Origin: Octopus vulgaris
Taxonomy: Eukaryota
Assembly (NCBI GenBank): GCA_951406725.2
Contig: OX597820.1
Span: 71,300,001 to 71,364,000, forward strand
Length of the DNA: 64,000 bases
Direction of reading: 5' to 3'
The notes beneath the pieces were generated by a model that saw only the letters and a program-made list of their open reading frames with translations, did no database searches and was not told the DNA's origin. Below are positions 7,341-61,820 of this stretch, piece after piece (positions within the stretch are counted from its first letter, which is position 1; every line of letters begins with the position of its first letter). The translations under genes and the position numbers were made by a program.

Positions 7341-7341
7341 C

Positions 7342-10372: not shown

Positions 10373-10486
10373 GTGTGATATTCTAAGAAAAATAGAAAAT
10401 ATCATATTAAAAATTTTGAAGTCACTTGAAAAGGGAATTATGCCTTCATTTGAATACGCTAATCATTCTTCATGGGATAATATCAA
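10373..10486 (+). CDS. SPO11: SPO11 internal coding exon (equivalent of vertebrate exon 2), 114 nt, phase 2/2
   Basis: Acceptor ttattttcAG. Translates (x)CDILRKIENIILKILKSLEKGIMPSFEYANHSSWDNI(K), which matches my recollection of human SPO11 SEVLASIENIIQDIITSLARNEAPAFTIDNRSSWENIK. Donor AA|GCAAGT gives the 114-nt/38-codon size of the vertebrate exon. Confidence 0.88.
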
Positions 10487-10784
10487 GCAAGTATTTTCAT
10501 TATGTATTTTTTAATAAAATATCATTTTCATTTTTTGCATTATTGTTTGCTAATGAAAGCATGAAAAAATTACTTTAAATCCACAGATGATACAAAATTG
10601 ATAACCAGAAGTCAAGTTTTTATAATTGCTAAAATTTTAAAGCAGTTTTGATGTTCATTATCTGTTATGTATTTTCAGTTTCATTTTTTGAATGAATTCT
10701 CTTTCAGTCTCTCTTTCCTAGCTCTTTTATAGTTATACATAAATCAATCTACCCACACACATGCTTACCTAGACATATTGGCAT

Positions 10785-10945
10785 TGTCATGATTGCATGG
10801 TTAAAATATTTGCTTCTCATCTTCTTGGTTTTGGGTTCACTTTACTTGTGCAGCACCTTGGGCAAAAGTCTCCTACCATAGCCTTGGGTTGACCAAATTC
10901 TTATTTGTAAAATTTGTTTGATTGAGATTGTGGAATCTTTTTAGA
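10785..10945 (+). mobile_element. 5' part of tRNA-derived SINE
   Basis: TGGTTAAAATATTTGCTTCTC...GGGTTCA...CACCTTGGGCAAAAGTCTCCTACCATAGCCTTGGG, the reverse complement of the head of the 7342-7800 family. Confidence 0.6.
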
Positions 10946-11597
10946 CGGCTGATTGGCAGATTTAAATCATTGTTCTGTTAAAATCATAAGCATTTAGATA
11001 AGGTCCCTAATCTGATGATATCTCCCTCCTTTCCTTCTCTAGCCCTGAATGACCTGAATGATGGTTGTAGCTACTGTCCGTCTTTGACTAAATTGTAAAA
11101 CAATAATAATTGGTATATAAAACAATAGCTAATTTAAATGTATGTTGGTTGGTTGATTTCTGCAGTCACCCTTTACATTGTGTAGGGAGAGGAAGAGAGA
11201 GAATTAAAGAGAGATACAGTGTGAGTTAACATAAGAGGTGCAGGATGATTCACATATGAGGTTTGATGGCAGACATTGAGTAAAAAAATGATATACACAT
11301 ACATATACACACGATGAGAGAGATATAGTGTCAGAAGAGAAGAGGGAGTAAATGACTGAGTAGTTACAGGTGAAGTTATAGAAATGAAAAACAAATAATA
11401 AAATTAATTTTATTTAATGTTAAGATGACAAATATTTTTCTTTTGAAAATTATTATTTATTTCACCATTTTATTTAAGCTGTAAGAAATTTGATAAAAGT
11501 TGATTATAATTATTGTATAAATGCCATAATTCCTAATATAAAATATGATGGCAAAAATATACTTCCAGAATTACCTGTCATATGATGGTTAACACTT

Positions 11598-11672
11598 TAG
11601 TAGTAATAGTAGTAGTAGTAGTAGTAGTAGTAGTAGCAGTAGCAGCACCAGCAGTAGTAGTAATAGTAGTAA
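11598..11672. repeat. (TAG)n/(CAG)n trinucleotide repeat
   Basis: Directly visible. Confidence 0.9.
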
Positions 11673-12105
11673 TTTTAGCACAAGGCCAGTAATTTTAGGG
11701 GAAGGGGTTTAGATGATGGCATCAACCCTAGTACTTGACTGGTATTTAACTCTGAATGGATGAAAGGCAAAGCTGAGCTCAGTAGCATTTGAAGTCAATG
11801 TAAATAACTTGAAAAAATGGTGCTAAGCATTGTGTCCAGTGTGCTTAAGAATCTGCCAGCTTGCTGCCTTAATAATAATGATACTGGTTTCTAGTTTAAG
11901 TACAAAGCCAACAATTTTGAAGGTAGGGTGGGGAGTAGTTCATATCATCAACTCCAATACATGATTGATGCTTTGTTTTATCAACTCTGGATGGATGAAA
12001 TGTAAAATTAGATCTCCACAAAATTTGAACTTAGAATGTAAAGTGTTGGAACTAATACTGCAAGCTGTTTTTTTTCCCAATACACTAATGATTTTGCTAA
12101 TGCTC
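11673..12105 (-). mobile_element. Two tandem decayed CORE-type SINE copies
   Basis: GCACAAGGCC...GGATGAAAGGCAAAG...GCATTTGAA, twice. Homologous to the better copy at 56597-56812. Confidence 0.6.
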
Positions 12106-23402: not shown

Positions 23403-23703
23403 AACTATGAAAACTGTAATAGTAATGCATATGGGTGAATGTATAGAGATAGATATGTGTGCCAGTATGTGTGTGTGTGTGTATGAACACACACATGTAT
23501 GAAACCATGACATTGGAACATGATGTAAGCAAACTCTTCAAACTGTCCAACCAATGCCAGTATAGAGAATGGACACTAAAAGGTGATGATATATATATCT
23601 GCTTATATGTATTTATGCATGTTTATTTGTGTGTGTATATATATATGTGTTTGTGTGTATGTAGGCATACATGCATATATGCACATGCATACATGAATAT
23701 ACA

Positions 23704-23925
23704 CATCATCATCATCGTTTAACATCCACTTGCCATACTGGCATGGTTTGGACAGTTTAACTGAAGACTGGCAAGCCAAGTGGCTGCACCAAGCTCCAAT
23801 CTTCTCTGGCAAGGTTTCTACAGCTGGATGCCCTTCCTAAGGCCAAGAACTCTGAGTATGTAGTGGTTGCTCTTTTATCTGCCACTGGCATGGGAGTCCA
23901 TGAGGTAGCACTGGCATCAACCATA
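23704..23925 (-). mobile_element. RTE-3'UTR-type short element
   Basis: (CAT)n-CGTTTAACATCC...GGATGCCCTTCCTAA. Confidence 0.75.
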
Positions 23926-24010
23926 TATACTTATCGACATATAAATAATTATATTTATACACATACACATATATATACATGTGTGTGTCTGTATATATAA
24001 AATGTTTATA

Positions 24011-24845
24011 CAGGATGTGGTGAATAAACTGTCACCTAAATTATGCAAAAATGAAAATAACACTGACATCTCATTTTAACAGATATATTTACAAAAATTA
24101 CTTTAAAATATCTTGAAATACTAAATTTATTCAATAACATCTCCATTCACTTCAACCATGGCCTCCAGACAACTCCGGAATCTCCTGCAACTCTTCTGGA
24201 CAGTCTCCTTGTTTAAGTTGGTGAATGCTGCCATAACCCTTGCCTTCAGTTCATCTCTGGTGTTACAAGGAATTTTGTTGGTCTCTTACTCAACTGTGCC
24301 CCACACATAATCAAGGGAGTTGCAATCTGAGGAGTTAGGTGGCCAGATGTTTGGGGTGGTGTGGTTGCAGATATTGCTTGACAGCCATGACTGGGTTCTG
24401 CTGGTGTGGCATGGTTCAGAGTCCGGTTGCCAGACATAGGGTCTTCCAACAGCCACCCTCTTCACCCAGGACAGCACTACGTCCTCCAGACACTTGATGC
24501 AGGCCTTTGTGTTGAGTCTGAGGCTGTGAGGGAAGATGAACAGAGGCATAACATCGCCATCATTAGTGATCACTCCAAACACCATGATATTGACTGGATG
24601 TTTGATTTTTATTACACTCAGTACATGTCCTCAGACTGACACCCAAATACTCTGAAATGTTCATATAGGAGCTTCTGGCATGAATGTCATACAGTACAGC
24701 ATACCATTTCCTAATTTCTGGCTGAGTGAATTGCATTATGGTGCTGTTTTTCTTACAGATGGTGCCCAACTGACCATAATATGCTGTGTAGTTGACAAAA
24801 TCAAAAACAAATAGTGCACATGAACAATTTGCCCATCACACCCTG
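24011..24845 (-). mobile_element. Internally deleted Tc1/mariner-superfamily element (maT/DD37D-like)
   Basis: TA-flanked imperfect TIRs CAGGATGTGGTGAATAAACTGT and ACAATTTGCCCATCACACCCTG. Motifs MVFGVIT-DG, YVWQPDSEPCHTS and WPPNSSDCNSLDY. Confidence 0.85.
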
Positions 24846-24887
24846 TACATATGTATAGACATATTGATACTTATGCGCACATTTATA

Positions 24888-25110
24888 TTCTTGCACTTGT
24901 TTCAGTCATTTGACTGTGACCATGCTAGAGCACCGCCTTTTAGTTGAACAAATCGACCCCAAGACTTATTCTTTGTAAGCCTAGTACTTATTCAATCGGT
25001 CACTTTTGCTGAACCACTAAGTTACGGGGATGTAAACACACCAGCATTGGTTGTCATGGGATGGTGGGGGAGACAAACACAGACACACAATCATACACGC
25101 ATGCACACAC
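24888..25110 (-). mobile_element. 3' part of tRNA-derived SINE
   Basis: TTTCAGTCATTTGACTGTGACCATGCTAGAGCACCGCC...GGGAGACAAACAC, same family as 7342-7800. Confidence 0.75.
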
Positions 25111-25177
25111 ACACATGTATATGTGCATATTCATGTATATCTGTGTGTGAATGTATATACACACACACAGATATATA

Positions 25178-25223
<46 letters not shown>

Positions 25224-25246
25224 TATATATACATATTCCTATATAT

Positions 25247-25478
25247 CGTCATCATCATCGATCAACGTCCGTTTTCCATGCTAGCATGGGTTGGATGGTT
25301 CGATTGGGGTCTGGGAAGCCAGATGGCTGCACCAGGCTCCAGTCTGATCTGGCAATGTTTCTACAGTTGGATGCTCTTCCTAATGCCAATCACTCTGTGA
25401 GTGTAGTGGGTGCTTTTTATGTGCTACCAGCACAGGGGCCAAAGGAGGCTGGCGCTTTTTATGTGCCATGGCATGGGT
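25247..25478 (-). mobile_element. RTE-3'UTR-type short element
   Basis: CATCATCATCGATCAACGTCCGTTTTCCATGCTAGCATGGG...GGATGCTCTTCCTAATGCC. Confidence 0.8.
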
Positions 25479-25499
25479 ATATATATATATACATATAGG

Positions 25500-26648
25500 A
25501 CGGTATGGTGCATGTGTGTGAACAGCCATGCTACATGGCAGTGAAACATGGGCTTTGATTACTGAGAACATGTGTAAGCTTGCAAGGGATGAAGCCAGTA
25601 TGCTCTGCTGGATGTGTAATGTCAGTGTGCATACACAACAGAGTGTAGGCGCCCTGAGAGAAAAGATGTGGTGTGCAAGAGAGACAACTGTGCTGGTATG
25701 GTCATATGCTGTGAATAGTTGAGGACAGCTGTGTGAAAATGTGTCAAACTCTATCAGTAGAAGGAACATGTGGAAGAGGTTGACCCAGGAAGACCTGGGT
25801 TGAGGTGTCAAGCACGACCTGCGAACATTGGTCCACATCGAGGCAATGACAAATGACTGAGACCTTTGGAATTATGCTGTGCTTGAGCAGACCCGGCAAG
25901 CCAAGTGAGACCATAACCTATGCCAGTGCAGTATAATCAGCCCATTTAAATTGCACTTGCGAAGTGAAATCATTGTCGTGATCAATGTCAGTGGAATGTT
26001 AAAAGCACCATTCCAGCATGATCATTGCCAGTGACGACTGACTGGCTCCCATGCCAGTGGCACATAAAATGCACCATTCGAGTGTGATCATTGCCAGTGT
26101 TGCTCTACTGGCTCCTGTGCTGTTGGCATGTATTGGGTTGTCCGGAAAGTTTGTGCCAATTTTTAAAGGAAAGTAAAAGGTCAATAGATACATGCGTTTC
26201 ATTTTTAATCAACCAAATATGAACCATTTTGTTGCACAATGCGTCTCCATCTTTCCTTTATCTTGAAAATACCCTCTTCCCAGAATTGAGGTGGTTTCAT
26301 GCAAAGAATTCATCAAGGTATCTTTTTATGTCATCCAAGGAATTGAAATTTTTACCATTAAGACTATTCTGCAGAGACCTGAATAAGTGGAAATCTGAAG
26401 GAGCGATATCTGGTGAATATGGAGGGTGGGGTAACACATCCCAGCCGAGCTGCAGCAATTTTCATCTGGTTCCCATCTGGCATGTAAAAATCACCCACTA
26501 CACTCTCAGAGTAGTTGGCATTAGGAAGGGCATCCAGCTGTAGAAACTTTGCCATATCAAACTGGAACCTGGTGCAGCTGTCTGGTTTGCCAGACTGGCC
26601 AACTCATGCCAGCATGGAAAGCAGATGCTAAACGATGATGATGATGAC
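25500..26648 (+). mobile_element. 5'-truncated RTE copy (ORF C-terminus + 3'UTR + (GAT)n tail) interrupted by a mariner fragment
   Basis: MLHGSETWALITENMCKLARDEASMLCWMCNVSVH matches the C-terminus of the 267-2912 ORF. The tail ends AAACGATGATGATGATG. Confidence 0.9.
26131..26477 (-). mobile_element. Mariner 3'-end fragment with one TIR, nested in the RTE 3'UTR
   Basis: TA-TTGGGTTGTCCGGAAAGTT TIR. Minus strand reads VLPHPPYSPDIAPSDFHLF. Confidence 0.85.
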
Positions 26649-26659
26649 ATACACACACA

Positions 26660-26820
26660 CGCTCTCAGAGTGGTTGGAATTATGAAGGGTATCTAGCCAT
26701 AGAAACTTTGCCAAATCAGACTAGGGTCTGGTGCAGCCCCTCAGCTTACCAGCCCAGGTCAAAGGATCCAACCCATGCTAGCATGGACAACATATGTTAA
26801 ATGATGATGATGATGATGAT
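26660..26820 (+). mobile_element. Additional RTE-3'UTR tail copy
   Basis: GAGTGGTTGG...GAAGGGTATCTAGCC...CCCATGCTAGCATGGA...(GAT)n. Confidence 0.75.
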
Positions 26821-26859
26821 ATATATATATACATGGATATATATATATAGTAGATTCAC

Positions 26860-27123
26860 CTATCGAAGACGACATATAAGTGTTCAACTTTTGCCGAACG
26901 ACCTGCACAAATGATTTGTTTATAGTGATTAAATGTTTGTACTGCACATTAGTGCACTCTCTCCATCAAATCAATGTTGCCTGAGCAGATGCACTGTGTA
27001 TTACGTGTCATGTATCAAAGTAATCACAGAGCAATGCAAAATTAAGTATTTTACTCAAGAACACGATGCACCATCTGCTCTTGCAATCGTACAACACCTT
27101 AACCACTATGCTATGCACCCTCA
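26860..27123 (-). mobile_element. Decayed tRNA-derived SINE (third family)
   Basis: Minus-strand head GGTGCATAGCATAGTGGTTAAGGTGTTG (A-box-like), followed by TGTTCTTGAGTAAAATACTT. Confidence 0.5.
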
Positions 27124-27137
27124 TATACATACATATG

Positions 27138-27192
<55 letters not shown>

Positions 27193-28499
27193 GCATGTGT
27201 GTGTGTATGTGTGGATACACACACACCCACACATATCACATATATGTATAAGTCTCTGTATTCACATATATGAATATACATACATACATATATATATATA
27301 TGTTTATACCTTGTATGTGTGTATAATGTGGATAATATAATGTATTTCTGGAAATAAACTATATTTTCAATTTCTTTTTCAAATAGTTCATCTTATTTAT
27401 TTATTGCTCATTATAAGGCTGTATTATGCTTTCCCCTCCATTGACAAGCATCCATTTACTTATTTGATAAATGTCTTAAAAAATGATATTTTTATTTGCG
27501 TAAAAACTTAACAAATGAAATTAGAAAACATTTGTAAAAAGATCTTTTTGCGATAAGTGATCTTTAAATATTATAATTTAAAGCATAGGTCTATAAAATT
27601 GTCTTTAATTTTCAGAAACTTATGAGGAATATGTTAATTACAATCAATTCCATATATCTTCAGATCTAAATAAATGAATGATTGAACCAAAGGATATACA
27701 TTTTATCATTATCGTTGCATAATAGGGATGATCAGTAATATTTGAATAAATTAATTTTATTATATATGTTAATTTGAAATCTTTTTGTTGGCCATTGAGT
27801 AAATATGAGGAAAATAATACCTTTTATGTGAAATAAGATGAATTGTCTGTTTTATCATAGTTATACAGATAGATTTGTATTATGTATAAAGATGATGAAG
27901 AATAAAAGTGGTCTTTTGAAATGCATATTTGGCAGAAATTTTCTGCATAATATCATATTAACAAAAGGCTTAAGTTCTCAGTTTGTCAAGATTTGGTATT
28001 ATGCTACACTCAGAAAATTTGATAAAATTCAGAAAATATGCAAATATTTTTTATGTTTACTGGAAATGCAGCTAGTTATATCTGACAAATTGTTTTCAAT
28101 GAAAATGAAATAATTGATTATGAAAATAACAGTTTATTTATTGTTGTGAAGATAAAAATCATTATGAGCATAATTTCTTTAATTTTGTTTCAAAAATAAA
28201 CTTTTCTTCTTTTATCTATTTCACTATTAATTTACTTCTTGAAAGTAGATTTATTAATTTTTTAAAATATTAAATGTAAATTGTTATTTTATTTAGTAAA
28301 TGTATTGTAGGGCTATAGATTTAAATAAATGGACAGCAATATATTTACAAGAGGATACAGTATGTTCTTTTAATCCAGAAAACATTTCTATATAAATATT
28401 GCAAAATTTTAAAAATACTTAATCTTTTCCATCATTTTCATTAAAACATCCTCATGGATATTTAAAGGCTGGTTGTCTCTATTTCTAAGTTAAATATTG

Positions 28500-30550: not shown

Positions 30551-33500
30551 CTTCATCTAACTTATTTAGAGGAAACAATGGTAAAAATATCAAGACTAAT
30601 ATACATAGTTATCAATACTATATACACAAGATGTTGATAAATGTAGAGAAATAAGAAAAGATTGCAAGACTACATTTTTATATGCCTAGATGTGTATTTG
30701 ATAGCAATTGATTGTGAATACTAAACTAAAGATTTAAAATAGTGTTTCTCAAATGCAATGATATTCAATACTTAAATAATGGGAATTTTAATAACTACGA
30801 TTAGTGGGATAGAAATATATATGTTTATTTAGTGTTGCTGTGAAAATAGAACTCATAGACAAATTGCTGGAAGTTTAGAAGCTTGAAGAGAGGATCTGAC
30901 TGATTAGTTTTGTCTTTCATTAAAGACCCATCAGGAATCACCACAGATAATGAGCTGTCAAAGTTAAGAAGCAAATTATTTATTGCAAATGTAAGTATAT
31001 TAAGACAAGCATAATGACATTTACATAATGGTTCAGATTTGATGGTCTGTCATTAATAAATATAGTACCAATGCAACATAGCTGTGAATATGCATGTGAA
31101 ACTCATGTTTAGTAACATTGTGAAAATAGATCCAATGGGGCTTTGGCTGTAAGAACTGAACAGACTAGTTTCCTCTTTATTTGAAGATTCATTAGTACTA
31201 AAATTCTTAATACCTAACCATCCATCAGCCTCCTGTCATTATGTAAATTTTAGAAATACTTCTCAAGATTTTGCAATTTGAAAGATGAAACTCTAGGTTG
31301 TTCTATTCTCAATTCAAGCTGTCAAAGCTCTTGTGGTTTATCCACAAGGTCCATTTTCACAAGACTGAATCCATATTAACATATTATATATGATCTCTGT
31401 ATACATATTTATGAATGACAACTTTGGATTGGGGATATGAGAAGACGTGAATGGTACATGTAGTTTGATATAAAATTTAATTTTGTCAAAGTGAAACTTT
31501 AAATGTAACTAATCCTAATTCAAATACAGAGTGTACTTTACTGCATTTCAGAATTGTAGCATGAACATTAAAAGATTAAGAATCAATAGTTAATGGATTT
31601 TGATATAATATTCCCTTGTTGCCTTGCATTATATCTCTGGGCAAAACTCCTTTCTCAGTAACTTGTCCTGGTTCTAGAGATACTGGTGTTCTTTCATGTA
31701 GATAATACTTATAATTTTCTTGTACAGAAGCTACCTGTGATCTCAAAATTGCTTCAAGTACTGTAGTGGTGCATAGCATTTTGTTAATTTAGTCACATGA
31801 GATAAACACACTTTTCTTTCTTATGGTTTGTAGTAGTAAAAGCATTTTATGTAAATATTTGTTCTAGATTTATCATTTATGTTTGTACATTAAATTTTAT
31901 TATAATTCTTGTAAAGTTGACTTGTCAAATTGTATAAATAATCATTTTTCATATCAGCACAAGGCATGTGGCTGGTTATGGAAGCAGTCAAACCGACCCC
32001 CATTCTTTCAAATCGCAAAATCTTGAGAAGTATTTCTAAAATTTACATAATGATAGGAGGCTGATGGATGGTTAGGTATTAAGAATTTTAGTACTAATGA
32101 ATCTTCAAGTAAAGCAATTGGTTGACAATCTTATTTTCCTGCTTTGGACTTCCTTTTATGTTCCCATTTTGTCATTGTTTACCAATAGTCATCTTTATAC
32201 ATACTTTTGATATGAAATTATTTTCACTTATTTTGACAACTTTGTTCGATATTTCAGGTATTTTGATCCTGGAAAATCCAACCGATAAAAGCAGCATTTA
32301 CATGTCAGATATTTTGTCAGTAAAAGGTGACAAGCACAAAAATACAAATTCTGAAAATAATTTTTGCACATTCTGAATTTCTGACATTCAAAACATAAAT
32401 ATCTGAAGATTATTTGAAGAAATTAATAAGTTAAAAGTTAGAATGAGTCATTACCTACTCACTTTCAAGTATTTACCTACTTGTTTTGGTAACTGAGAAA
32501 AGCCAAGATAGATTTTTATAGTCCCACTTTTAATTATGCCTCTGTTTAATATACCATTTAATGCAACTCTTCCTGTAATTTCTTGCTTATATTTTCCTGT
32601 CTTACATAATCCTGAAAGGTTAAGAACTGGCAGAGTCATTATGGCATTAAATACAATGCTTTGTAGAATTTGTTCCAACTCTCTGCATTTTTGTTTCAGA
32701 TGTTGCTGAATTCAAATGTACCTGTTATTGTTGGTGTTAATAAATAAGGTTCTGGTCCAGTCTAGTGGATTGATGAAGTTGCTAAAATATCAAACAAGAT
32801 GCCTTGCTGTATCTGTTTCAGTTCTTTGCATTCTGAGTTCAAATATCAGCTCCTACCACTGCTTTCTTCATTGAAGGAAATGGATCATTTGGGATCCAGC
32901 TAATAGCGAAAGGCTTTCAATGTCAGATAGAGCAATGCATTCATTGGAGCAACATTTTGGTTGTATCAATAAATCAAGAGGACTCTGCTTAATATTAAAC
33001 ACTAGGTCAGTAAAAGTCTTGAGAAAGAAAGAGAATTACTTTGTTTACAGTTAAAACAGTAATTCTCTTTTACTGCTTCTACTCTACTTTCCAATCCATT
33101 GTTCCCTAACCGAAAGGCTGGATACTTTAAGAGCTAAGATCATTGTTTTGTGTCCATGCAATTTTAAAATTTGATGTTTCAGATCTCAGGTGATTAAAAA
33201 CCATTTCTTTGGTTGAGCTTAAGAGCAGATGCCATCTGAAAACTCTGGGCCATCTTTGACCTTTATTTATTGTTCTAGAAGCAAACAACATATAACACCA
33301 TCTTTGACATTGAATAAAACAGACTTTAGCAGGCAGATCCATCATGTCATTGCAATGTGACTGTAAAGTAGTAAGTCATAGTATTTATTCATTAGGTTCA
33401 CTATTATACATCACAGTACAAAGATTATAGCATTATAGTTGTTCCCTTTGACTTGTAAATTCTGTTTCTTTGGGATTTATTTCCTGCATTGTTAATGTTC

Positions 33501-36500: not shown

Positions 36501-38589
36501 ACCCAGTTACATACACATATACACATACACAGATCTATGCGTGTACATTCAGAAAAATTCTAATTTCTCTAATTTGGTACTGATGGGCTTCCTAGGAAAT
36601 ATCATAGCTGACATGATTTTAATCAGCACTATTTTTTCTTACAATTATATTTTTATTTTATCAATAGTTTATAATTTTGATAAATTCACTTATATATGCA
36701 CACATGCTGACCTATCACAGACAGCTAAACAAGTGACTGAGTGACTGAAAATATCACCTTGGACATGTAACTTCACATCCTCCACGCAACATTAATTACT
36801 CCAAATGATCTGCATGTAGTTGTAGCAGTACAGGCAGAGAACATAACCTACAATTTCTAGGCAACTCGTACTTCCACAAGCTGAGTGGCTTTTATCCTCT
36901 GCTGTAACTCCTAGAAATCAAAAGATATTTTTAGGATTGATACAGAATGAAAGCTCTCCTTTTTCTCAAATTGTAATCAGTCCTCTTGATCCCTTGCCAA
37001 ATCTATTACTGCCACTTTGTGGAACTTTTGTAGCCACCTTTCTTCATCTCAGAAGGCTCTCATGGAGAAAGGCTATTTGCTTTGTATTCCCATCTACACT
37101 GCACCGCTATAACAAAACTCCTCTAAAACATGCCTTCTTCCCTCTCCACCAATCACTCTAATGCATATGCATATACATTAAGTATGAAGACATCTTCAGT
37201 TGCTTCAAACCAGCAAGATCACTAACACTGTCCCTTCCATTACTCTCAGATTGTGTACTCCAGTCAAAATATTCTCCCTGCATAAGTCTCTGTAGAGATC
37301 TGCCTAATTTTTGGAAATCTACTTCTGTGTGTCCAACATTAATCTATCACTCTTCTAACATCTCAAAAGTGAATGGAAACTATTGCTGAAGTTGAACATA
37401 AACTGCATTAATCTCACCTGTTTTGCTGAACAGAGCAAAAGTCATGGATACATCTCTACACCTTCTAAGTCCTAAAAATATATAAGTTGATCGTCATTTG
37501 CTCATTATTTCTATTATTCATCTTTTTATATCTAATTTGTTAAAATTTTGAGTTAGGAATTGACTGGCCAACAAAACAAAATGCTTTGTTTTGAAACAAA
37601 ACAATAAAAAATGTATAGTAAAGAAAAATAGGGTAGAAATAAATGTATAGTAGGGTAAAGTGAAATTTGGAATTTTCTTATTATAAACCATTGCTTTTTA
37701 AAATTAATAGTATTAAAAATATTTTAATCAGTTCAAATTAATATACAAGCTGATGTCACACATCCTACCATCATGCAAGAATAAATGTAGAAAATGATGT
37801 AAATTATTCCATCTGACATTTGAATGGCTATTTTCCTGCAGCTCATGAATCTATTACCGTGAACATTTATTTTACCTTATCATGCTAATATAAAACATAC
37901 TGCTTGAGAAAGAGTATACAAATAAGGCCGCACACATTTTCTTAATTTAAATAAAATCAAATATGCAAGTCTAGATTAAAAAAAAAATCATTGTTGTATT
38001 AAAAGAGATATTTTAATATTTTCATTTTATAAAAATAGTCTTCCAAAAGTGTGTTAACCTCTTTGATTATCTTAGTTATTTCTGGCACTATGCTATTCAT
38101 AAAAAAAACTATACCTGACTTCAGTAAAAAGCAAATAAAGAGGTACAGTAATTTGCTACGAGGAGCAAGCAGGTAATATCTAATATTATGTGCAAAGTCT
38201 TTTGTATCTGTCATTTAATTGAAATTTTTAGAAATAAGACAAATTTCTATTGTTATTTAGAAAATTATTTTCTTAAAGAAAATTATTTATTACATTAATT
38301 TTCCTTTCATCTAGAATGATTCAGTATCTTTCATGTGTTGGGTGGCCTTAGATGAGAGTATTATGTACATTTCTAGCACACCACCATTACTAGAGTGCAG
38401 AGGGTGTTGTAGTTGCTGTAGGAAAAAAAAAAGAAAAGAGAAAAAACACACACAGAGTAGGAAGACAGTACAGTTATAGGCTAAAGGCTGAGGTGTGACT
38501 TCTTGGCAATCAGTTGGTAGAAGGAGATTCATGCGATTAGTAGGAACACTAACATGTAGGAACAATATTCCATTGTGAGTTTCACATGA

Positions 38590-39960
38590 GCTTTCAGGAG
38601 AATCAGTAACGGTTTAGAACTGAATTATTTTCCAGTCCTGAATAGGAAGGCTGGTTTATGGAACACAATTTTGCTTTGTTAAATTTGAGATAGCCAGATT
38701 GTTAGTGATTGTGAGGTATAACATCATAGTAACTTTGAAGTGGTTTGTTCCATGTTGTCCAAGATTGGAAGTGATGAGATACAAGAGTGTTTCCTTTATA
38801 TGAGCAATGACTGTACTGTTGTTCTGTTAAAGGAGACCAGATTGACACAGTCTCATTGGAGAATATATTCAAGTTCTTTTGTTAATAAGGTATGGTTGGT
38901 TTGATGGGAAGATCCTGGGTTGTGTATAGTTGAGGTGTCCATGTTGTGCCTGCATGTAAAAGGTTAAGAAGGTGTGAAGATTTGAATTCTCTATTTAGGA
39001 GTTAGTGCTATTAGAGGTAATTGTAAGTATGTTGTTAATGCATAAGAGGAAAAATGTGAGGGGAAAAGAAAAGCATAGAGCAATGTTGATAACTTGAGTT
39101 AGACAGAGACCCATCTGTAACAGTTCAATTTGACTGAAAGCTTTTAAGATTAGACAGATGGAGGCCATAGGCTGTAGATTACAATTGAGATACTCATTGC
39201 TGACTTGTTTAGATGCTGAAAAATGCAACAACATTGTTTTGCTGAATTTCTCAAGGACAAAGAGTGATGCAGGAGAGCAATCTTGGGAATCTAGCTCTAC
39301 AGAGGAAAGTGGGTAAGTGGAGATGGAGAAAATGATTGTTGACAACTTTTCATCATCTTTGATATGTAGGAAATGAGAGCAATTGCTTGTAGGATTAGAA
39401 TTTGGTGGTTTTGGAGGAAAGATATACTGTAGCATGTTTCTAAAGATAGGGATATATCCTGCAGAGAGAAAGATTAAGGTGGCAAGCTGGCAGAAATGTT
39501 AGCATGCCAAGCAAAATGCTTAGTGGTATTTCATCTGTCTTTACATTCTGAGTTCAAATTCCTTTCAGAGTTGATAAATTAAGTACCAGTTGCATACTGG
39601 GATCAATCTAATCGACTGGACCCCTCCCCCAAAATTTCAGACCTTGTGCCTAGAGTAGAAAAGACAGAAAGATTGAAGTGTTTGGCTTGGGAGTTAGCTT
39701 TGGATTGCATTGTTTAAGGGCAATGAAAAGAACATTGTCCTGACTGGTTGACTTGTTTGAATGGAAGTGACAGGAAATATTTTAGCACTTGGTGTATGCA
39801 CTGTGGAGTGAAGGCAGAGTGATTTGGAAGAATTATGTAAAGTGTATGCATTATGGAGGTGATTGCAAAGTAGGAAGTAGTATCTGTAGAAATACAGCTT
39901 ACAGTGCTCTCATGGCTGAAGAATAGCTGACAGGATGATTCCAAGTTGGTGTGCATTTTT
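38590..39960 (-). mobile_element. Decayed Penelope-like RT remnant interrupted by a SINE
   Basis: G/T-rich + strand, residual 146-aa ORF (38995-39435), thumb-like traces near 38830-38990. Confidence 0.35.
39476..39663 (+). mobile_element. CORE-type tRNA SINE with internal deletion
   Basis: AAGGTGGCAAGCTGGCAGAA...GAGTTCAAATTCC...GATAAATTAAGTACCAG...CCTTGTGCCTAGAGTAGAAAAGA, the reverse complement of 56597-56812. Confidence 0.8.
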
Positions 39961-40253: not shown

Positions 40254-41713
40254 CCCCTGGGAGCCCCTCTATGCTGATAACCTGGACCTCATAGCAGAAT
40301 CACTACTAGAACTAGAGAAGAAATTTCAGGTGTGGAAGCAAGGTTTAGAATCGAAGGCCTTTAGAATCAATGTAGCAAAGACTAAAGTTCTAGTAAGTAG
40401 GAAGGTGAACACATCACATACCCGCTTCAGGTAGGTGGCCCTGCTTGATCTGTAGAGAAGGTGTTGGCAGAAACTCCATAAGATGTACCCAGTGTAAGCT
40501 ATGGACACATAAGAGGTGCAGCAACATTAAAGGAAGATTAACCGGGAAGATAGCTTTCGTGTGTGGCAGATGCACAGGGGCAATAAACACCTAAGATGCT
40601 CAGAAAACAGATTCCATCTCATGCCAGGGGAAGAAACTAGACGTAGTTGATAGATTCCGCTACCTAGGTTACCAAGTTCGTAGTGGGGGTGGAAGCTCAG
40701 AGAGTGTTACCACTAGAATAAGAATAGCCTGGGCAAAGTTCAGAAAACTTCTAACCTACTGGTGACAAAGGGCCTCTCACTCAGAGTGAAAGGTAGCTTG
40801 TACGATGCATGTGTGCGAACTGCCATGCTTCACGGCAGTGAAACATGAGCCATGACTGCTGAAGACATATGTATGCTCAAAAGAAATGAAGCTAGCATGA
40901 TCCTCTGGATATGTATTGTCAGTGTGCACACATGACAAAGTGTAAGCACCTTGAGAAAAATTTTGGACATAAGAAGCATCGGATGTGGCATGCAAGAGAG
41001 ATATTTGCATTGGTATGGTCTTGTACAACAGATGGGTGAGGAGAGCTGTGTGAAGAAGTGCCACTCCCAAACAGTGAAAGGAATCTGGGGTAGAGGGAGA
41101 CCCAGGAAGACATGGGATGAAGCATGTAGTAGTGAAGTATGACCTTCGAACATTGGGCCTCACAGAGGCAATGACAAAGGACCAAAGTCTCTGGAGATAT
41201 GCTGTGACTGAGAAGACCTGGCAAATAAAGTGAGCTCACAGCTGTAACCCACACCAGTGTCACATAAGCAGCCCATTCAAAAGTTCCTTGGATCGTAGGG
41301 TGACATGCCATGCTTGAGGAGACCTATTGAGTCAAGTACATCAAAATCAAATCAATTTACATTCAAATGGAAATTGTAGTTGTGATCCCTGTGCCAGTGG
41401 CACGTAAAAAGCACCATCCAAACATGGCTGATGCTGGCGCCGCCTTGACTGGCATCTGTGCCGGTGATATGTAAAATGGACCTCCGATCATGGTCAATGC
41501 CAGCCCCCTCTGACTCCTGTGCTGGTGGCAAGTAAAAAAGCACCCACTCCACTCTCGGGGTGGTTGGTGTTAGGAAGGGCATCCAGCTGTAGAAACACTG
41601 CCAGATCAGACTGGAGCCTGGTGCAGCCTCCTGGCTTCCCAGATCACAGTCAAACCATCCAACCTATGCCAGCATGGAAAAAAGAAGAATTTAAACAATG
41701 ATGATGATGATGA
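40254..41713 (+). mobile_element. 5'-truncated, decayed RTE LINE copy (YADD region through 3'UTR and (GAT)n tail)
   Basis: PWEPLYADNLDLIAESLLELEKKFQVWKQGLESK...CLICREGVGRNSIRCTQCKLWTHKRC...; collinear with the 267-2912 ORF but with stops and frameshifts. Complete 3'UTR. Confidence 0.93.
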
Positions 41714-42559
41714 TTGCAAAAGAACCCTGTTTTTCACTGACTTTTCTTTAGTTAAAATACACATTCTCTAATGGGAACTTCCTACCTGAAGTAATGAATA
41801 AATCCAATCTTTCCTCTGGCTTACAAATAATTAGAATGAATGTGTAAGACAGGAAGAGCAAGGGATAGTGTCACTTTTTGGAAGATGAGTTTCTTTTCGC
41901 TTGTCTGACCAGTTCAGAGTAGCAGCCAAAGTTTTTACAAATCACACTCTGCTATCTTAAAAAGTGGCTATATCGAACAACAGAATTATGACTAGAATGC
42001 CTGCACATACTGTATAGGCTAGTGTATAAGACACACTCTTGTAGAAGATCTACAATGATAATGTTTTGAAAAAAAGAGATAATTTTAGTTTTATCAAATA
42101 TTTAGTGAAAGATATTTTGAAGTAGTTTTGTTGGGGAAATTGTATGATTCTGTGCATGTAAATACAATACAGTGACAGTGTACTAGAATAAAGCTTAAAA
42201 TCATATAATGTAACGTTATACTAACCTTTAAAGGAAACTAAATTAAATTTGCCATAGCTAATAAGAAATATATTGGTATTACTAAATCTTGGTACATGCA
42301 AACAAAAGTACATACACTGGTTGAAAATGAAACAACCAACAAAGTACAATAAATCTGAAAGAATTTGTATTGATAGTTACAGTACATGCAGACAAATCAA
42401 AATTTCATTGAATATTAGTATACAGATGCAACTGAAAAACAAAAAAAATTAATGCAGTGAACAGTAGAATCTACTGTACATAGCAAGAAGCACAAAATCT
42501 TGGAAAATAGTATCATAAAGGTTTATTTAATAAACATTCACAAAACCTAGAAAATTTTA

Positions 42560-50804: not shown

Positions 50805-50852
50805 AGACATGTGTATACCACATACATATTTATATATATGATGAAGTGTTTT

Positions 50853-51566: not shown

Positions 51567-51631
51567 ATAGCTCAAACTTACACAGTGTGCAAATGACTGA
51601 GAAGACTATTTTCTATATATTTTCTATTTTC

Positions 51632-51666
<35 letters not shown>

Positions 51667-53439
51667 GGATATATGGATCTAGATTGCGAGATCATATGTC
51701 AGATACAAGTTATTCGAATATAGTTCCTCAAGTTCAGGTGTATTTAGAGTTGTGGACACTATGTATACATCAAGGTATGTATGATTGGGATTATATTATG
51801 TGAATGTGTGTTTAGCTGCATGTAGGCATCTGGGTAATTCGTTCAATGAATTTATTTATATTGTGTTCCTTTGTTAACATCAAGAGCGACTCCTTGGAGC
51901 ATAACTGGCATTTTCAGGATATAGTGATGTAGGGACTCATGAGTCTAAGTATGGACTATGTAATGTATTTTGTCTTCATTTCCTTAAGCCTCCAGATAAA
52001 ATTGACCAGTGATTTTACATGTTATTTAATAATAATACAAAATAGTAACAACAAAAGAATGAGACCTTGAGAAATAGAGGATTATTTATATATGTTATAA
52101 TTTAGAACAAACAGTAAAAGGTGTCATTATAGTTCTTGGAGTTTCAAATGTCAGAGCAAAGAGCTATGATACATTCTTGTCAACTATCAATGGCAACAAA
52201 TGCTATGAAAAACAGTTGAATAAAAGGGAAGTAACTCTAATAGATGGAAAATATATATACATAAAAAATACATGCAACTATATTCTCACAATACATAGGC
52301 ATAAAACCTCCTGCGTTTACAATGTCTACATACATATACACTCATACAAAGATGTATATGCACATACACACACACATATATGTATGTACGTACTCGTACA
52401 TACATATATCCACACACACATGCACACATGTATTTATATATATATATATGTATGTATGCAACTTCATCCTCATATACACATAGGTGCTTACATGCATACA
52501 CATAACAGCACACACTCACACACACAAACTCACATATATGAAGTTCTTACGACGACCTGCCCACATCAGCAGAACTGAGTTCTAGAAGCGCTGTGTGTCC
52601 CACCCACACTTAACAAGAAAAATGCTCACACACTCTACCACAACAAATCAAACTACATCTCTACATTTCTTCTCTTCCTCAGATTTCTGCTGCATGTACT
52701 ATGATTACCTCCCACTCCCCAATCCTGTCCTCTTGGCCCTGTGCCACTGTATCATTGCTCTCTGCTTGCTCCCGACCTGTGCATTCTATCCTCATGTCCT
52801 ATCTCACTCACTCTATTATTGCTATCTACTAGCCCCTGACCTGGGTGTTCCACCCACATGTAACAAGAAAAAATTTCCCTCATCCTACTCCAACAAACCA
52901 ATCTACGTCTCTGCTCTTTCTCACATTTCCTTTTTCATACACTATGCTTAGCACTCACTACCCAATCTTGCTCTCACAACCCTGTTCCTCTGTCTCATTG
53001 CTATCCGGTAGCCCCTCCAACTCTATATATATATCCAAGTCTTCTGCCACTTACTCACACTCTTTAATCACACTCCCTTCACAATATCCTGCCACTTATA
53101 TTATGGCATTTGAACCTCAAGGGTATGCCCTGCACTTGCCACCATCTATATCTCTCTGTTCCTTTACTCAACCATCTCATTTATATTCTGATCACCATTT
53201 CTTGTGAGTATGCCTGGCATTTTGCCAACATCTCTATCCTACTGTCTCCCACTCTCTCTCCTTTTCCTGCACTTCCCTTAGGTTGGGCAACCATGTACTT
53301 TCTCTGCGGTAGCACACCTGTTTCTGTCTTCATTCCAGATCTTTCTCTCTCTCTCTGGCCGGGTAACCTTGTACTTCTTCTATATTGCTATATTTGTCTC
53401 ACTATAGCCTTTTCATCATCACCTCCTCCAATGCTTTGT

Positions 53440-53805
53440 AGAAGTTTTTTTTAATGTCTTGCAAGTATTTGGTGATCCTGTCAGTACAGGTGCCAATTAA
53501 AAGCACCTGGTCCACACTGTAAAGTGGTTGGTGTTTGGAGGGTATCCGGTTATAAAAACCCTGCCAAAACTGACCTTGGTCTGTGCTTGTGCCACGAAAA
53601 AGCACTACTCACCTTGCCTGTGTTTGTGCAACATAAAATGCACCAAGTCCACTCTGCTGAGTGGTTGGTGTTAGGAAGGGCATCCAGCTGTAAAAGTCCC
53701 ACCAAAACTGACACAGAAGTCTGGTTCAGGCTTAGGTCTGACTGGCTCTTGTAGTACCGTCCCACTCATGCTAGCATGGAAAATGGAGTTAAACGATGAT
53801 GATGA
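53440..53805 (+). mobile_element. Older RTE-3'UTR-type element with duplicated central block
   Basis: GTGGTTGGTGTT(T/A)GGA(A)GGG(T/C)ATCC twice; (GAT)n tail. Confidence 0.7.
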
Positions 53806-54907
53806 TATATATATATATATATATATACATACATACATATATACACACACATACACATATAGACAGATAGATAAATATAAACACACATATAATCATTCAT
53901 TATTCTTTTTACATTCAATCTGAATGTCTGATAAATGTATGTGTGTATGTGCATCCATATATATATTTTTAGCTCCTGACCAGCACTAGTTGAACAGGTG
54001 TATGATCAGGATTTTTAGCCATAATCATTTCATCTGTTTGTATATCTATATCGACATTGTGCCTTCCTTTTTTAAGATAGTAGGGTGTGATTTAAGGGAA
54101 GTTGCTGCTGGGAAAGGTTTGATTTTTAAAAGAAGACAGGGGCTAAGAAACATTCAAAGAGCTGTTACCTTTGTTGATAAATGGTTTCTCACTTCGTACA
54201 CAAGCCATACTTGTTTGATCACACAACTTTCTTGAACTCTACTTTGATCACTAGGACTCTACTAACCACTTCTGTGCAACCAATGTCCAGGTTCTCAGTG
54301 TACCAGAGATCATAATTCACCTGAAATAGGTATCAAATTCTTCCATCTCAGACCCCACTATCATAAAATAGGATGACAAAATGTAAGCTTAGATATACAA
54401 ACCGGTGGAGTAGTCTATTGCTGAGATACTTTTGAGCATAGATTTGTTCAACCATGGCAGCACAGTAATGAGATATAGACATTGAATGTGAAAAATTTGT
54501 GAAGGCTTGGAAGAACTGGAGTATGTTGAATTTATAGTGTTAAGGTTCATGGAAGAGAACACTAGTTAACATACAATGGCCAGGCATTTAAGGTATGATC
54601 TGATGTATTTGTTATTTTTATATAACTTCAGGTTAGCCCTGACAATTTTCCTTATTCGTTTTAACTAATTTTAATGTTTCTGAAGATATTTTATTGGCCA
54701 TATTATGTCAGGTATACTTCAATATTTTTTGTGAAAGTTTTTGGAAGAAATGAGTACTTTTGAATAACATCAAAATGTTTACTTTCTGGTAGTACTAAAT
54801 CATAAATTTACGTAAGATACAATGTGTGTGTATATATATTATATATATATATAGATGTATGGATGTATGTATATATATACACGTACATGCATATATAGAT
54901 ACATATT

Positions 54908-54957
<50 letters not shown>

Positions 54958-58129: not shown

Positions 58130-58465
58130 GCTGAGACATGCTTGTGTGGTTAAGAAGTTTTCTTATCAACCATGTGTTTTTGCATTCATTCCCACTGTGT
58201 GACATAGGCAAGTGTCTTCTATAGCCTGAGTCTTCCAATACCTTGTAACTGAAATTGTTAGACGGAAAACCACTGTATAAGTGTGTGTATGTGAATGTGT
58301 ATCTTTGTGTCTTCCCACCTGTGTCTGGCATTGTTTATATCAACTGTAAAATGTATTCAGCTGTTGAAAAGTTTTTCATGTGTAAGATCAGAGAATAAGT
58401 AGCTTACTAACTTATGCCCAACCCATGCCAGCATGGGAGAAGTGGGTGTGAAAATGATGAGAATG
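58130..58465 (+). mobile_element. tRNA-derived SINE with RTE-type tail
   Basis: GTGTGGTTAAGAAGTTT...GGCAAGTGTCTTCTATAGCC...CCAACCCATGCCAGCATGGGA...AAAATGATGA. Confidence 0.65.
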
Positions 58466-59576
58466 TCTTCCTTGCCACTAGTGAGTCTAACTGAAACAAC
58501 TTTTCTTGCACAAAACTCACATCCATTCACTATGGTTATGGTTATATCATTCCAGTTATCTTGCCAGACATAACTGCCATTGTAGCAAAGCTGACAGTTG
58601 CAAACCTGAAATTCTAAATGTGAAAGAGAGAGAGCCGTTACTGGTGCTAGTCTAATTTCTCATATAATATGATATATATATTGCACTATAGCAAGTAATG
58701 CTATAATGCATTTATAAGATAGCGTTCCTATGTAAATTTTGAATTATAATATAATAATTCTGGCTTTTACTTATGTTGAAAAAGAATTGATTATTTAGTT
58801 TGCAAAAATTATTTTAACAGACGTTAAAAGTAGCATAAATTTTTTGTTACATCAGTAGACACCATATTGATTTATATATTCAAAAGACTGAAAATCACTC
58901 TAGAGATTAAAATTCAGTTTGGATAAAATATGTAACCATTTATGCAAAATAAGTGAGATACAAGAGAGCCTTCAATGGTCACTCCACTTGCCTCAAATAG
59001 CAACTGAATTACCTTCAAACCATGCTCATTCTTCAAAAGGAAGGACACAGGTATTGTAGGGATCACAAATATGAAAAAAGATGGAATACTTATGGTTGGA
59101 ACACCTTTGATTATAAGTCTTCTCAACTGAAGTTCACATGGAGCTGAGCCATAAGCAGGATAGTTTCTAAAGTTATATTCAGTATACTTTCTAATATAGA
59201 AGGTACTTGTTAATTTAATCCTTATCCTTGTTTCTTATGAAATTCCTCACAAATAGATTTGAACTTAAAATCCTCATTCACTTTGTGATTTCACATCTAC
59301 TTTTATCAATCATAAGAATAGCAAATATATTATAATTAAAGATAGCTTTAGGTGCTCATAGCAATTATTAAATGTTCAGCCTTATAGAAATATAAGAAAA
59401 TTATATTATACATGGTCCTATGGGGCCCCTGGGTCAAGATGCTGCAGCAGTCAACACACTTGCCCAAAGATAGTTCTAGTTATCATGTCAAAAGTATTAA
59501 CTACTTACATACCAACAATAAATAACTTTTGCACAATTTTATGGATAACTAAACACACACACATACTAGCATTATT

Positions 59577-61675
59577 TCATCATCATCATCATCATTTAGC
59601 GTCCGTTTTCCATGCTAGCATGGGTTGGACGGTTCAACTGGGGTCTGGGGAGCCCGAAGGCTGCACCAGGCCAGTCAGATCTGGCAGTTTTTCTACAGCT
59701 GGATGCCCTTCCTAACGCCAACCACTCCGAGAGTGTAGTGGGTGATTTTATGTGCCACCGACACAGGTGCCAGACGAGGCTGGCGAACGGCCACGCTCGG
59801 ATGGTGTTTTTATGTGCCACCGACACAGGTGCCAGACGAGGCTGGCAGACGGCCACGCTCGGATGGTGTTTTTATGTGCCACCGACACAGGTGCCAGATG
59901 AGGCTGGCGGACGGCCACGATCGGATGGTGTTTGTTACGTCCCCAAAGCACGGAGGCCAGTCTATGCGGTACTGGCTACGGCCACGTTCGGATGATTTTC
60001 TTGTGTGCCACCGGCACTGGTACCACAAAGATACAAATTCCATTGATGTTCATCTATTTTGATTTGTTTTGATTTGATTTGATTTGATTTTCACTTGCCT
60101 CAACAGGTCTTCACAAGTGTCACAAGAAGGAAGGTATGCACAGGTGGACTGACTACGTCCCAGGTAGGGGCCACGGGTTATGGCCTGACTAGTCTTGCCG
60201 GGTCTTCGGATGGTGTTTTTATGTGCCACCGACACAGGTGCCAGATGAGGCTGGCGAACGGCCACGATCGGATGGTGTTTGTTGTGCCCACAGCACGGAG
60301 GCCAGTCGATGCGGTACTGGCTACAGCCACGTTTGGGTGGTTTTTTTGTGTGCCACCGGCACTGGTACCACAAGATACAAATTCCATTGATGTTCATCTA
60401 TTTTGATTTGATTTGATTTGATTTTCACTTGCCTCAACAGGTCTTCACAGGTCTTCACAAGTGTCACAAGAAGGAAGGAAGGTATGCACAGGTGGACTGA
60501 CTACGTCCCAAGTAGGGGCCATGGGTTATGGCCTGACTAGTCTTGCCGGGTCTTCGGTTGGTGTTTTTATGTGCCACCGACACGGGTGCCAGATGAGGCT
60601 GGCGGACGGCCATGATCGGATGGTGTTTGTTATGTGCCCACATCACAGAGGCCAGTCGATGCGGTACTGGCTATGGCCACGTTCGGATGGTTTTCTTGTG
60701 TGCCACCGGTACTGGTACCACAAAGATACAAATTCCATTGATGTTCATCTATTTTGATTTGGTTTGATTTGATTTGATTTGATTTTGATTTTCACTTGCC
60801 TCAACAGGTCTTCACAAGTGTCATAAGTAGGAAGGTATGCACAGGTGGACTGACTACGTCGCCGGGTCTTCGGATGGTGTTTTTATGTGCCACCGACACA
60901 GGTGCCAGATGAGGCTGGCGAACGGCCACGATCGGATGGTTTTCTTGTGTGCCACCGGTACTGGAACCACAAAGATACAAATTCCATTGATGTTCATCTA
61001 TTTTGATTTGGTTTGATTTTCACTTGCCTCAACAGGTCTTCACAGGTTTGGTTTGATTTTCACTTGCCTCAACAGGTCTTCACAAGTGTCACACGTGTCA
61101 CACACTTGCCTCAACACGTCTCCACAAGTGTCACACACTTGCCTCTGCCTCAACAGGTCTTCACAAAGTGTCACACACTTGCCTCTGCCTCAACAGGTCT
61201 TCACAAGTGTCACACACTTGCCTCAACAGGTCTTCACAAGTGTCATAAGAGGGAAGGTATGCACAGGTGGACTGACTACGTCGCCGGGTCTTCGGATGGT
61301 GTTTTTATGTGCCACCGACACAGGTGCCAGATGAGGCTGGCGAACGGCCACGATCAGATGGTGTTTGTTGTGCCCACAGCACGGAGGCCAGTCGATGCGG
61401 TACTGGCTACGGCCACGTTCGGATGGTTTTCTTGTGTGCCACCGGTACTGGAACCACAAAGATACAAATTCCATTGATGTTCATCTATTTTGATTTGGTT
61501 TGATTTGATTTTTGATTTTCACTTGCCTCAACAGGTCTTCACAAGGGTCACACACTTGCCTCAACAGGTCTCCACAAGTGTCACACACTTGCCTCTGCCT
61601 CAACAGGTCTTCACAAGTGTCACACACTTGCCTCAACAGGTCTTCACAAGTGTCATAAGAGGGAAGGTATGCACA
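59577..61675 (-). repeat. Head-to-tail multimer (5 units, ~316-422 bp) of the RTE ORF end/3'UTR with a single (ATG)n tail
   Basis: Junction GGGTCTTCGG(A/T)TGGTG recurs at ~60202, 60550, 60866 and 61288. Each unit has GATACAAATTCCATTGATGTTCATCTATT-(GATTT)n-CACTTGCCTCAACAGG. The tail (CAT)n occurs only at 59577. Confidence 0.92.
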
Positions 61676-61731
61676 AAAAAATATGATATTGATATCTTTT
61701 TAATTATCAAGGATATTTGTTAAATTTTCAG

Positions 61732-61820
61732 GTTCTCAGTGGAGTTTGGATTAGAAACGATTATGGAACCGAAAACTTCAAAAATATCTTTTGGTTCGAA
61801 AAGATCAAGAAAAAAATTTG
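61732..61820 (+). CDS. SPO11: SPO11 internal coding exon (equivalent of vertebrate exon 3), 89 nt
   Basis: Acceptor aaattttcAG, donor G|GTAATT. Splices in frame to 10486 (AA+G = K) giving KFSVEFGLETIMEPKTSKISFGSKRSRKKF, which aligns without gaps to recalled human KFEDSVGLQMVSHCTTRKIKSDSPKSAQKF. Confidence 0.85.

What the first reader, a model, noticed from the sequence alone, without database searches (positions are those of the whole stretch)
10373..61820. Hidden SPO11 gene: two short exons separated by a 51-kb transposon-filled intron
Seen: two exons with proper acceptors that join in frame (…SSWDNI-K-FSVEFGL…) across 10487-61731 (51,245 nt). Neither appears in the ORF track. Established: SPO11 is the Topo VI A-like enzyme that makes meiotic DSBs. 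From memory, both peptides and both exon lengths (114, 89 nt) match vertebrate exons 2 and 3. Inference: most of the window is one SPO11 intron expanded by TE accumulation, and automated gene models could easily truncate or split this gene. Exon 1 and exon 4 were not found in the window.
Basis: partly seen in the sequence, partly recalled or inferred. Interest (0 to 1): 0.7.

Follow-up and report, generated by a model that had tools for sequence, protein, structure and literature searches.

The report
Giant octopus SPO11, two odd introns
These two exons belong to the octopus gene for SPO11, the enzyme family that cuts DNA to start meiotic recombination; the gene spans 759,000 bases and has two unusual splice sites, which likely contribute to its truncation in some databases, and one of them is a rare intron type shared with corals and mammals, so likely much older than recently reported.

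Summary
Confirmed. 10373-10486 and 61732-61820 are exons 2 and 3 of the single octopus SPO11 gene, joined over 51,245 nt (RNA-type contig; annotated O. sinensis protein P0003). 'Transposon-filled' is not supported: 20-23% recognisable repeat, the lowest value among 51-kb tiles of the locus (lower bound). The intron is not the gene's largest: 13 exons span 758,633 nt, with introns of 267, 124, 117 and 92 kb and an intact 407-aa frame. Best by-product, outside the window: intron 7 is a U12-type intron with GT..AT ends (RNA joint) at the same codon as the mouse/human SPO11 minor intron; coral-like and other invertebrate contigs carry it too (15 of 17 loci with an intron there). That contradicts a 2026 statement that Spo11 is a major-intron gene outside chordates. 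The scan earlier noted an intron at this site in a fungal SPO11. Known gene, unusual anatomy; modest interest.

The parts
1..10372 (+). 3' part of SPO11 intron 1 (29,144 nt, GT-AG; exon 1 at G000:C7:71281062-71281228)
10373..10486 (+). SPO11 exon 2, 114 nt, phase 2 at both ends; aa 56-94 of P0003; skipping it would keep the frame
10487..10492 (+). GC-type 5' splice site (GCAAGT); the next GT, at 10491, is out of frame
   Evidence: use shown by the loose end of contig X1
10487..61731 (+). SPO11 intron 2, 51,245 nt, GC-AG, 33.7% G+C, 20-23% recognisable repeat
61732..61820 (+). SPO11 exon 3, 89 nt, AG acceptor, GT donor; aa 94-124 of P0003
61821..64000 (+). 5' part of SPO11 intron 3 (6,370 nt; exon 4 at G000:C7:71368191-71368257)
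59022..59054 (+). intronic stretch matching the first residues of the truncated O. bimaculoides model P0001 (9 of 11 identical): likely a spurious first exon
23586..27197 (.). largest repeat cluster in intron 2 (up to 113 local copies)
40254..41719 (.). repeat cluster in intron 2 (up to 106 local copies)
52536..53900 (.). 1.3-kb interspersed repeat, copies on many contigs at 73-85% identity
59553..61655 (.). high-copy repeat with tandem sub-arrays (periods 62, 348, 40, 33) ending 76 nt before the exon-3 acceptor
32974..39467 (.). longest stretch of intron 2 with no repeat mark (6,494 nt)

Best explanation
The window holds exons 2 and 3 of the single, intact octopus SPO11 gene, spliced across a 51-kb GC-AG intron within a 759-kb, 13-exon locus that is predicted to make the ordinary meiotic break-forming enzyme. 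Shown: the exon chain, the 407-aa frame, the catalytic-site residues, the GC donor and its use, and a U12-type intron 7 with GT..AT ends and its use. Inferred: the major spliceosome removes intron 2 through the otherwise consensus GCAAGT site; the minor spliceosome removes intron 7; the protein pairs with a TOP6BL partner through the exon-2 segment and cuts DNA through Tyr150, as mouse SPO11-beta does; the long introns are likely passive products of genome-wide expansion (old, decayed repeats plus a minority of young ones), not a selected device; the GC donor is likely lineage-specific while the minor intron is ancestral to corals and bilaterians; long introns plus these two sites likely cause the truncated gene models.
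For: 13 exons in order on one strand, no N in 864 kb, one stop, 405 of 407 residues identical to P0003; one locus per genome for PF04406, PF21180 and P0003. DIYY, EKD and DxD motifs align with mouse Y138, E224, D277/D279 (PMC11922745 passages). RNA-type contig X1 (1,032 nt) carries the exon-2 3' end before exon 3 and exon 4 after it and joins exons 7-8 with GT..AT ends, its coordinates (351 to 740) equalling the summed lengths of exons 3-7. Intron 7: donor 9/9 to the U12 consensus and the only branch-point motif among 12 introns; U12 snRNA gene present; mouse and human donors AGC|GTATCCTTT and GGA|GTATCCTTT (PMC6717393 supplement) fall on the same codon. 15 of 17 metagenome loci with an intron there have a GTATC(C/T) donor, 7 of them 88-94% identical to the coral Oculina. 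Intron-2 donor is GT in 3 of 3 other-animal loci.
Against: The junction contigs come from a related octopus species and are only guessed to be RNA; contigs give no tissue, level or strand. No read was laid across introns 9-12, so the 3' 600 kb rest on P0003 and on exon order. The repeat estimate catches under half of the published 66% genome figure, so much of the intron may still be old transposon debris. The 17 loci are about four or five lineages, not 17 independent cases; six could not be placed in a phylum; two have a U2-type donor at that site; 18 further loci could not be scored. Vertebrate intron-2 donors were not seen. Enzyme activity is untested.
Confidence: 0.9

Rival explanations
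1. Intron 2 is mainly a pile-up of transposons.
For: High-copy repeats at 23586-27197, 40254-41719, 52536-53900 and 59553-61655; faint 66-82% matches in otherwise unique stretches; published repeat share of O. vulgaris is 66% (PMC13282606) while my method finds 29% over the locus.
Against: 20% by self-comparison against 20-43% for sixteen 51-kb tiles, 23.3% with genome-wide hits added; 27300-39400 only 2.9%; 0 of 132 ORFs pass a Pfam cut-off. The genome search scores only 39 candidates and skips very common words, so these are lower bounds.
Confidence: 0.3
2. The weak GC donor, the minor intron and the 759-kb length are a selected timing device: they delay full-length SPO11 and allow an alpha-like, exon-2-skipped form as in mammals.
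For: Exon-2 skipping keeps the frame; mouse exon 2 is skipped under slow polymerase (PMC7165175 introduction); P0004 lacks exactly exons 7 and 8, which flank the minor intron; 5-13 h to transcribe at an assumed 1-2.5 kb/min (rates recalled).
Against: Both informative contigs (X1, X4) include exon 2; none of 4 octopus models skips exon 2 while keeping exon 1; the donor is GT in three other animals; no expression timing data.
Confidence: 0.12
3. The two exons belong to different genes, or the long distances are an assembly artefact.
For: Models P0001 and P0002 start at exon 3 and end after exon 9 with unrelated tails.
Against: One contig joins the exons; P0003 from another species has the same chain; no N in the locus; the first residues of P0001 map 2.7 kb inside intron 2, so that intron is long in a second species too.
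Confidence: 0.02
4. Intron 7 is cut two bases later as an AT-AC intron rather than GT..AT.
For: The shifted cut also keeps the frame and has canonical AT..AC ends.
Against: The RNA-type joint is 160 to 1573 with ends GT..AT and no ambiguity; P0001 and P0003 both carry the residue given by GT..AT; the shifted donor loses the U12 consensus.
Confidence: 0.03

Closest known systems
O. sinensis SPO11-like isoform X1 (P0003, 407 aa) and X2 (P0004)
   Same: All 13 exons; 405 of 407 residues; the exon 2-3 and 7-8 junctions.
   Different: Two substitutions (aa 357, 393). Its gene length and splice sites were not seen here.
Mouse and human SPO11 (beta isoform)
   Same: Domains, catalytic residues, no gap over exons 2-3, minor intron at the same codon with the same GTATCCTTT donor.
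   Different: Minor intron 299/342 nt against 1,412 nt; octopus acceptor is AT; about 47% identity; alpha-type exon-2 skipping not seen in octopus; mammalian gene is far shorter (recalled: about 14 kb).
U12-type introns with non-canonical GT-AT ends (PMC10639083)
   Same: U12 donor and branch point with a non-AG acceptor.
   Different: A rare subtype (supplement row GT-AT 0.433, 319 for animals; column heads not seen); the 15 orthologous introns found here all end in AG, so the AT is a change in the octopus line.
U2-type GC-AG introns (about 1% of human introns, PMC3167603 abstract)
   Same: GC at +1/+2 with otherwise consensus AAGT.
   Different: Sits on a 51-kb intron, 21 times the published O. 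vulgaris median of 2,467 nt; no alternative use shown.

Membership tests
SPO11 / Topo VI A | winged-helix domain with catalytic tyrosine | tested here: met
   PF04406 74.5 bits on P0003, 50.9 bits in G000; DIYY Tyr149/150 aligns with mouse 137/138
SPO11 / Topo VI A | Toprim domain with acidic metal-binding residues | tested here: met
   PF21180 197 bits, positions 1-170; E236, D288, D290
SPO11 / Topo VI A | orthology to animal meiotic SPO11, single intact copy | tested here: met
   best hits are named animal SPO11; one locus; intact frame. No tree was built.
SPO11 / Topo VI A | DNA cleavage with TOP6BL; germline expression | not testable with these tools
   needs biochemistry and tissue-labelled RNA
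U2-type GC-AG intron (intron 2) | GC donor with U1-type consensus, AG acceptor, spliced at that site | tested here: met
   GCAAGT, 5 of 6 consensus positions; junction in contig X1
U12-type intron (intron 7) | RTATCCTTT donor | tested here: met
   9 of 9; other 11 introns 3-7 of 9
U12-type intron (intron 7) | CCTTAAY branch point 10-20 nt before the acceptor | tested here: met
   CCTTAAT starting 17 nt before the acceptor end; absent in the other 11 introns
U12-type intron (intron 7) | minor spliceosome present in the genome | tested here: met
   U12 snRNA 125 bits, over cut-off; only U12 was searched
U12-type intron (intron 7) | splicing depends on U11/U12 | not testable with these tools
   needs knock-down
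SPO11 alpha/beta alternative splicing | transcripts skipping exon 2 | tested here: inconclusive
   frame allows it; X1 and X4 include exon 2, X3 stops one base before exon 3, X2 does not cover it
transposon-expanded intron | most of the intron is recognisable transposon sequence | tested here: not met
   20-23%, a lower bound; no curated library was available

The most novel reading that the evidence does not exclude
Octopus SPO11 is a splicing-gated giant gene: a 759-kb transcription unit, a weak GC donor on the exon whose mammalian counterpart binds TOP6BL, and a minor intron as old as the coral-bilaterian ancestor with a degraded AT acceptor together set when active break-forming enzyme appears in meiosis, and give an alpha-like isoform independently of mammals.
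Probability: 0.12. Interest if true: 0.7.

Novelty: new member of a known kind. Interest (0 to 1): 0.36.

Why it matters
Practically, it repairs the gene model of a core meiosis gene: P0002 (244 aa) lacks exons 1-2, 8 and 10-13 and would look like a broken SPO11. Evolutionarily, the minor intron in octopus, corals and another invertebrate group contradicts the statement in PMC12956336 that Spo11 is a major-intron gene outside chordates; the source table lists O. bimaculoides as 'no_ortholog' for this intron, so the reported restriction likely reflects missing gene models. A meiosis gene 37 times the species' published median gene length is also an exception to the trend that the longest octopus genes are neuronal (PMC7222433) and offers a test of intron delay in meiosis.

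Tried and rejected
PDB sequence search with exon 2 gave only chance hits. The representative-protein search with exon 2 found just P0004 and one unnamed fragment. No RNA holder was listed as such for exon 3; runs laid are guessed RNA. X2 covered only the neighbouring repeat and X4 did not cover exons 7-8: no evidence either way. An exon-2-only alignment was too variable for a metagenome scan; a full-length alignment was used. Two exact-match exon-chain scripts returned nothing because of two substitutions (resolved). Nested genes: 0 of 132 intron-2 ORFs of 62 aa or more passed a Pfam cut-off; 50 of the 122 ORFs of 130 aa or more in the 864-kb region were scanned and 8 hit, all reverse-transcriptase or mariner-type HTH families; short-exon nested genes are not excluded. 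No recursive-splice motif in intron 2 under one strict pattern. No paper giving the vertebrate intron-2 donor was found. Six invertebrate loci could not be placed in a phylum. No fold or complex was run: the family was not in doubt.
Full report
OBSERVATION. The two exons are as described: 10373-10486 (114 nt) and 61732-61820 (89 nt), each after an AG, in frame across 51,245 nt. The exon-2 donor reads AA|GCAAGT, so the intron is GC-AG; the only other cut with the same mRNA is CA..GG, and the next GT (10491) is out of frame. Profiles from 116 non-octopus homologues rank the two frames first among 2,057 stop-free stretches of the window (E 1.2e-13 and 1e-5).

THE GENE. The window is G000:C7:71300001-71364000. 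PF04406 and PF21180 each hit once in G000, downstream on the + strand. A search with a downstream exon returned four octopus proteins. P0003 (O. sinensis X1, 407 aa) maps in 13 exons from 71281062 to 72039694: exon lengths 167, 114, 89, 67, 109, 87, 37, 107, 100, 38, 77, 112, 120; introns 29,144, 51,245, 6,370, 8,184, 29,399, 8,087, 1,412, 23,069, 267,286, 124,238, 92,432, 116,543; span 758,633 nt; one stop; 405 of 407 residues identical. The 864 kb fetched hold no N. Tyr150, Glu236, Asp288 and Asp290 align with mouse Y138, E224, D277, D279 (PMC11922745 passages). Against published O. vulgaris medians (gene 20,288 nt, intron 2,467 nt; PMC10700109 passages) the gene is 37 times and intron 2 is 21 times the median. 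The organism is an octopus by these protein matches.

SPLICING. Of four guessed-RNA runs laid on exon 3, X1 has a 1,032-nt contig whose loose ends are the 3' end of exon 2 and the start of exon 4; X4's contig begins to fit at 61728, as an exon-2 join would (its loose end was not printed); X3 stops one base before the exon; X2 covers only a repeat. The same X1 contig joins exon 7 to exon 8, skipping 1,412 nt with ends GT..AT, and exon 8 starts at its base 740, exactly 389 nt (exons 3-7) after exon 3 at 351. These are contigs of a related species and carry no tissue or level.

ANNOTATION. P0001 (O. bimaculoides, 299 aa) and P0002 (O. vulgaris label, 244 aa) start at exon 3 and end after exon 9 in unrelated sequence; P0002 also lacks exon 8; P0001's first residues map to 59022-59054 in intron 2. 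They are the only 2 of 120 aligned homologues without exon 2. P0004 lacks exons 7-8. That long introns and odd sites cause the truncation is inference.

IS THE INTRON TRANSPOSON-FILLED? Self-comparison of the 864-kb region marks 17.8% of intron 2 as interspersed repeat and 19.7% with tandem repeats, against 29.0% for the region and 20-43% for sixteen 51-kb tiles. Genome-wide searches with three pieces covering 41 of the 51 kb added mostly short 66-85% matches, for 23.3% in all. Of 132 ORFs, none passes a Pfam cut-off; two weak hits lie below it. The published repeat share is 66.25% (PMC13282606 abstract and results), so my method misses more than half, and old debris may make up much of the rest. 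The intron is repeat-poor for its neighbourhood, not repeat-rich.

THE GC DONOR. The intron position is old; the GC is not general. Vertebrate donors were not seen. In mouse, exon 2 is the exon skipped in SPO11-alpha (PMC7165175 passages and introduction) and is needed for robust TOP6BL binding (PMC11922745); that octopus exon 2 has the same borders is inferred from the gap-free alignment and recalled lengths. Skipping keeps the frame but was not observed.

THE MINOR INTRON (outside the window, G000:C7:71414161-71415572). Donor GTATCCTTT, branch motif CCTTAAT, acceptor AT; no other intron of the 12 has the full donor or the branch motif. A U12 snRNA gene is in G000. Mouse and human SPO11 minor introns have donors AGC|GTATCCTTT and GGA|GTATCCTTT and lengths 299 and 342 (PMC6717393 supplement rows); these exon ends fit the Q-H and R-N codons that align with octopus residues 223-224, and mouse isoform 2 (P0102) has a short deletion right after them (no human row was in the alignment, the R-N reading is from other mammals). 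Of the 77 loci, 47 show the exon-8 motif: 17 have an intron at this site with exon 7 found, 12 have none, 18 could not be scored. Of the 17, 15 have GTATC(C/T) donors and AG acceptors: 7 coral-like (88-94% to Oculina), 6 of an unplaced invertebrate group (57-79% to several phyla), 1 fish-like, 1 bird-like; 2 (L101, L132) are U2-type. Many are near-duplicates. PMC12956336 (passages and section 26; supplement unreadable, and its Figs S2-S3 may qualify the claim) calls Spo11 a major-intron gene in non-chordates. In the source table (PMC11347168 Table S8, column 165, counted from copied rows) O. bimaculoides is 'no_ortholog' and Lottia 'protein_ortholog'; other rows were not read. The same paper says most mollusc orthologues of human minor introns are minor, so the result is expected in kind. 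GT-AT ends are a known rare subtype (PMC10639083 section 30 and one supplement row). Ancient SPO11 intron positions are known (PMC4071758 passages).

MECHANISM. Shown: exon chain, frame, both odd junctions. From established knowledge: SPO11 with TOP6BL cuts DNA through a tyrosine and a Toprim metal site. Inferred: U1-type recognition of the GC site, U11/U12 removal of intron 7, passive intron growth, and 5-13 h of transcription at assumed (recalled) rates of 1-2.5 kb/min. A timing role is possible but has no support yet (0.12).

PRINT. Searches listed no paper on octopus SPO11, its size or these sites (listings only; none of the 20 listed of 75 held both spo11 and octopus); subscription papers, including the 1999 cloning papers, are not in the library. 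PMC7242645's two supplements hold no 'spo11'. PMC7222433 (passages) reports that the longest octopus genes are neuronal. A bioRxiv preprint on coleoid genome architecture (passages) gave nothing used. Earlier scan notes had nothing at this place or on this protein; two notes on related introns were seen late and not checked.

VERDICT. Real, correctly identified, a known gene: new member of a known kind, interest 0.36. The value lies in the corrected 759-kb model, the GC donor and the ancient GT..AT minor intron.

Noticed in passing
G000:C7:71414161-71415572 (L008:161-1572): SPO11 intron 7 is U12-type with GT..AT ends, spliced in contig X1, at the same codon as the mammalian minor intron.
   Followed up: yes
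G000:C7:71438849-72039574: Introns 9-12 (267, 124, 92, 117 kb) separate exons of 38-120 nt and make up 79% of the gene; both truncated models end here.
   Followed up: partly
window 267-3116 (-): Stop-free 949-aa frame with reverse transcriptase (PF00078) and a weaker endonuclease match, a young non-LTR retrotransposon in intron 1.
   Followed up: partly
window 6505-6888 (-): Mariner-type transposase fragment (PF01359) in intron 1.
   Followed up: partly
window 59859-61655: Nested tandem arrays (348-nt unit x2.9, 62-nt x3.1, 33-40-nt units) of a high-copy repeat just before the exon-3 acceptor.
   Followed up: no
L101 and L132: Two invertebrate SPO11 loci have a U2-type donor at the minor-intron site and have lost intron 4: likely a U12-to-U2 conversion.
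   Followed up: partly
L116:~280: Bivalve-like locus (79% to Mya) with a U12 branch motif and an AC acceptor before exon 8; the donor is not on the contig, so possibly an AT-AC subtype.
   Followed up: no
L087: Coral-like contig with exons 7-8 joined at the predicted base but intron 6 still present, like a partly spliced transcript.
   Followed up: no
P0004: O. sinensis isoform X2 skips exactly exons 7 and 8 around the minor intron, in frame, losing the first Toprim acidic residue.
   Followed up: partly
G000:C13:64480688-64482198: About 14 tandem 101-nt copies of a piece of the repeat found at window 53611-53695.
   Followed up: no
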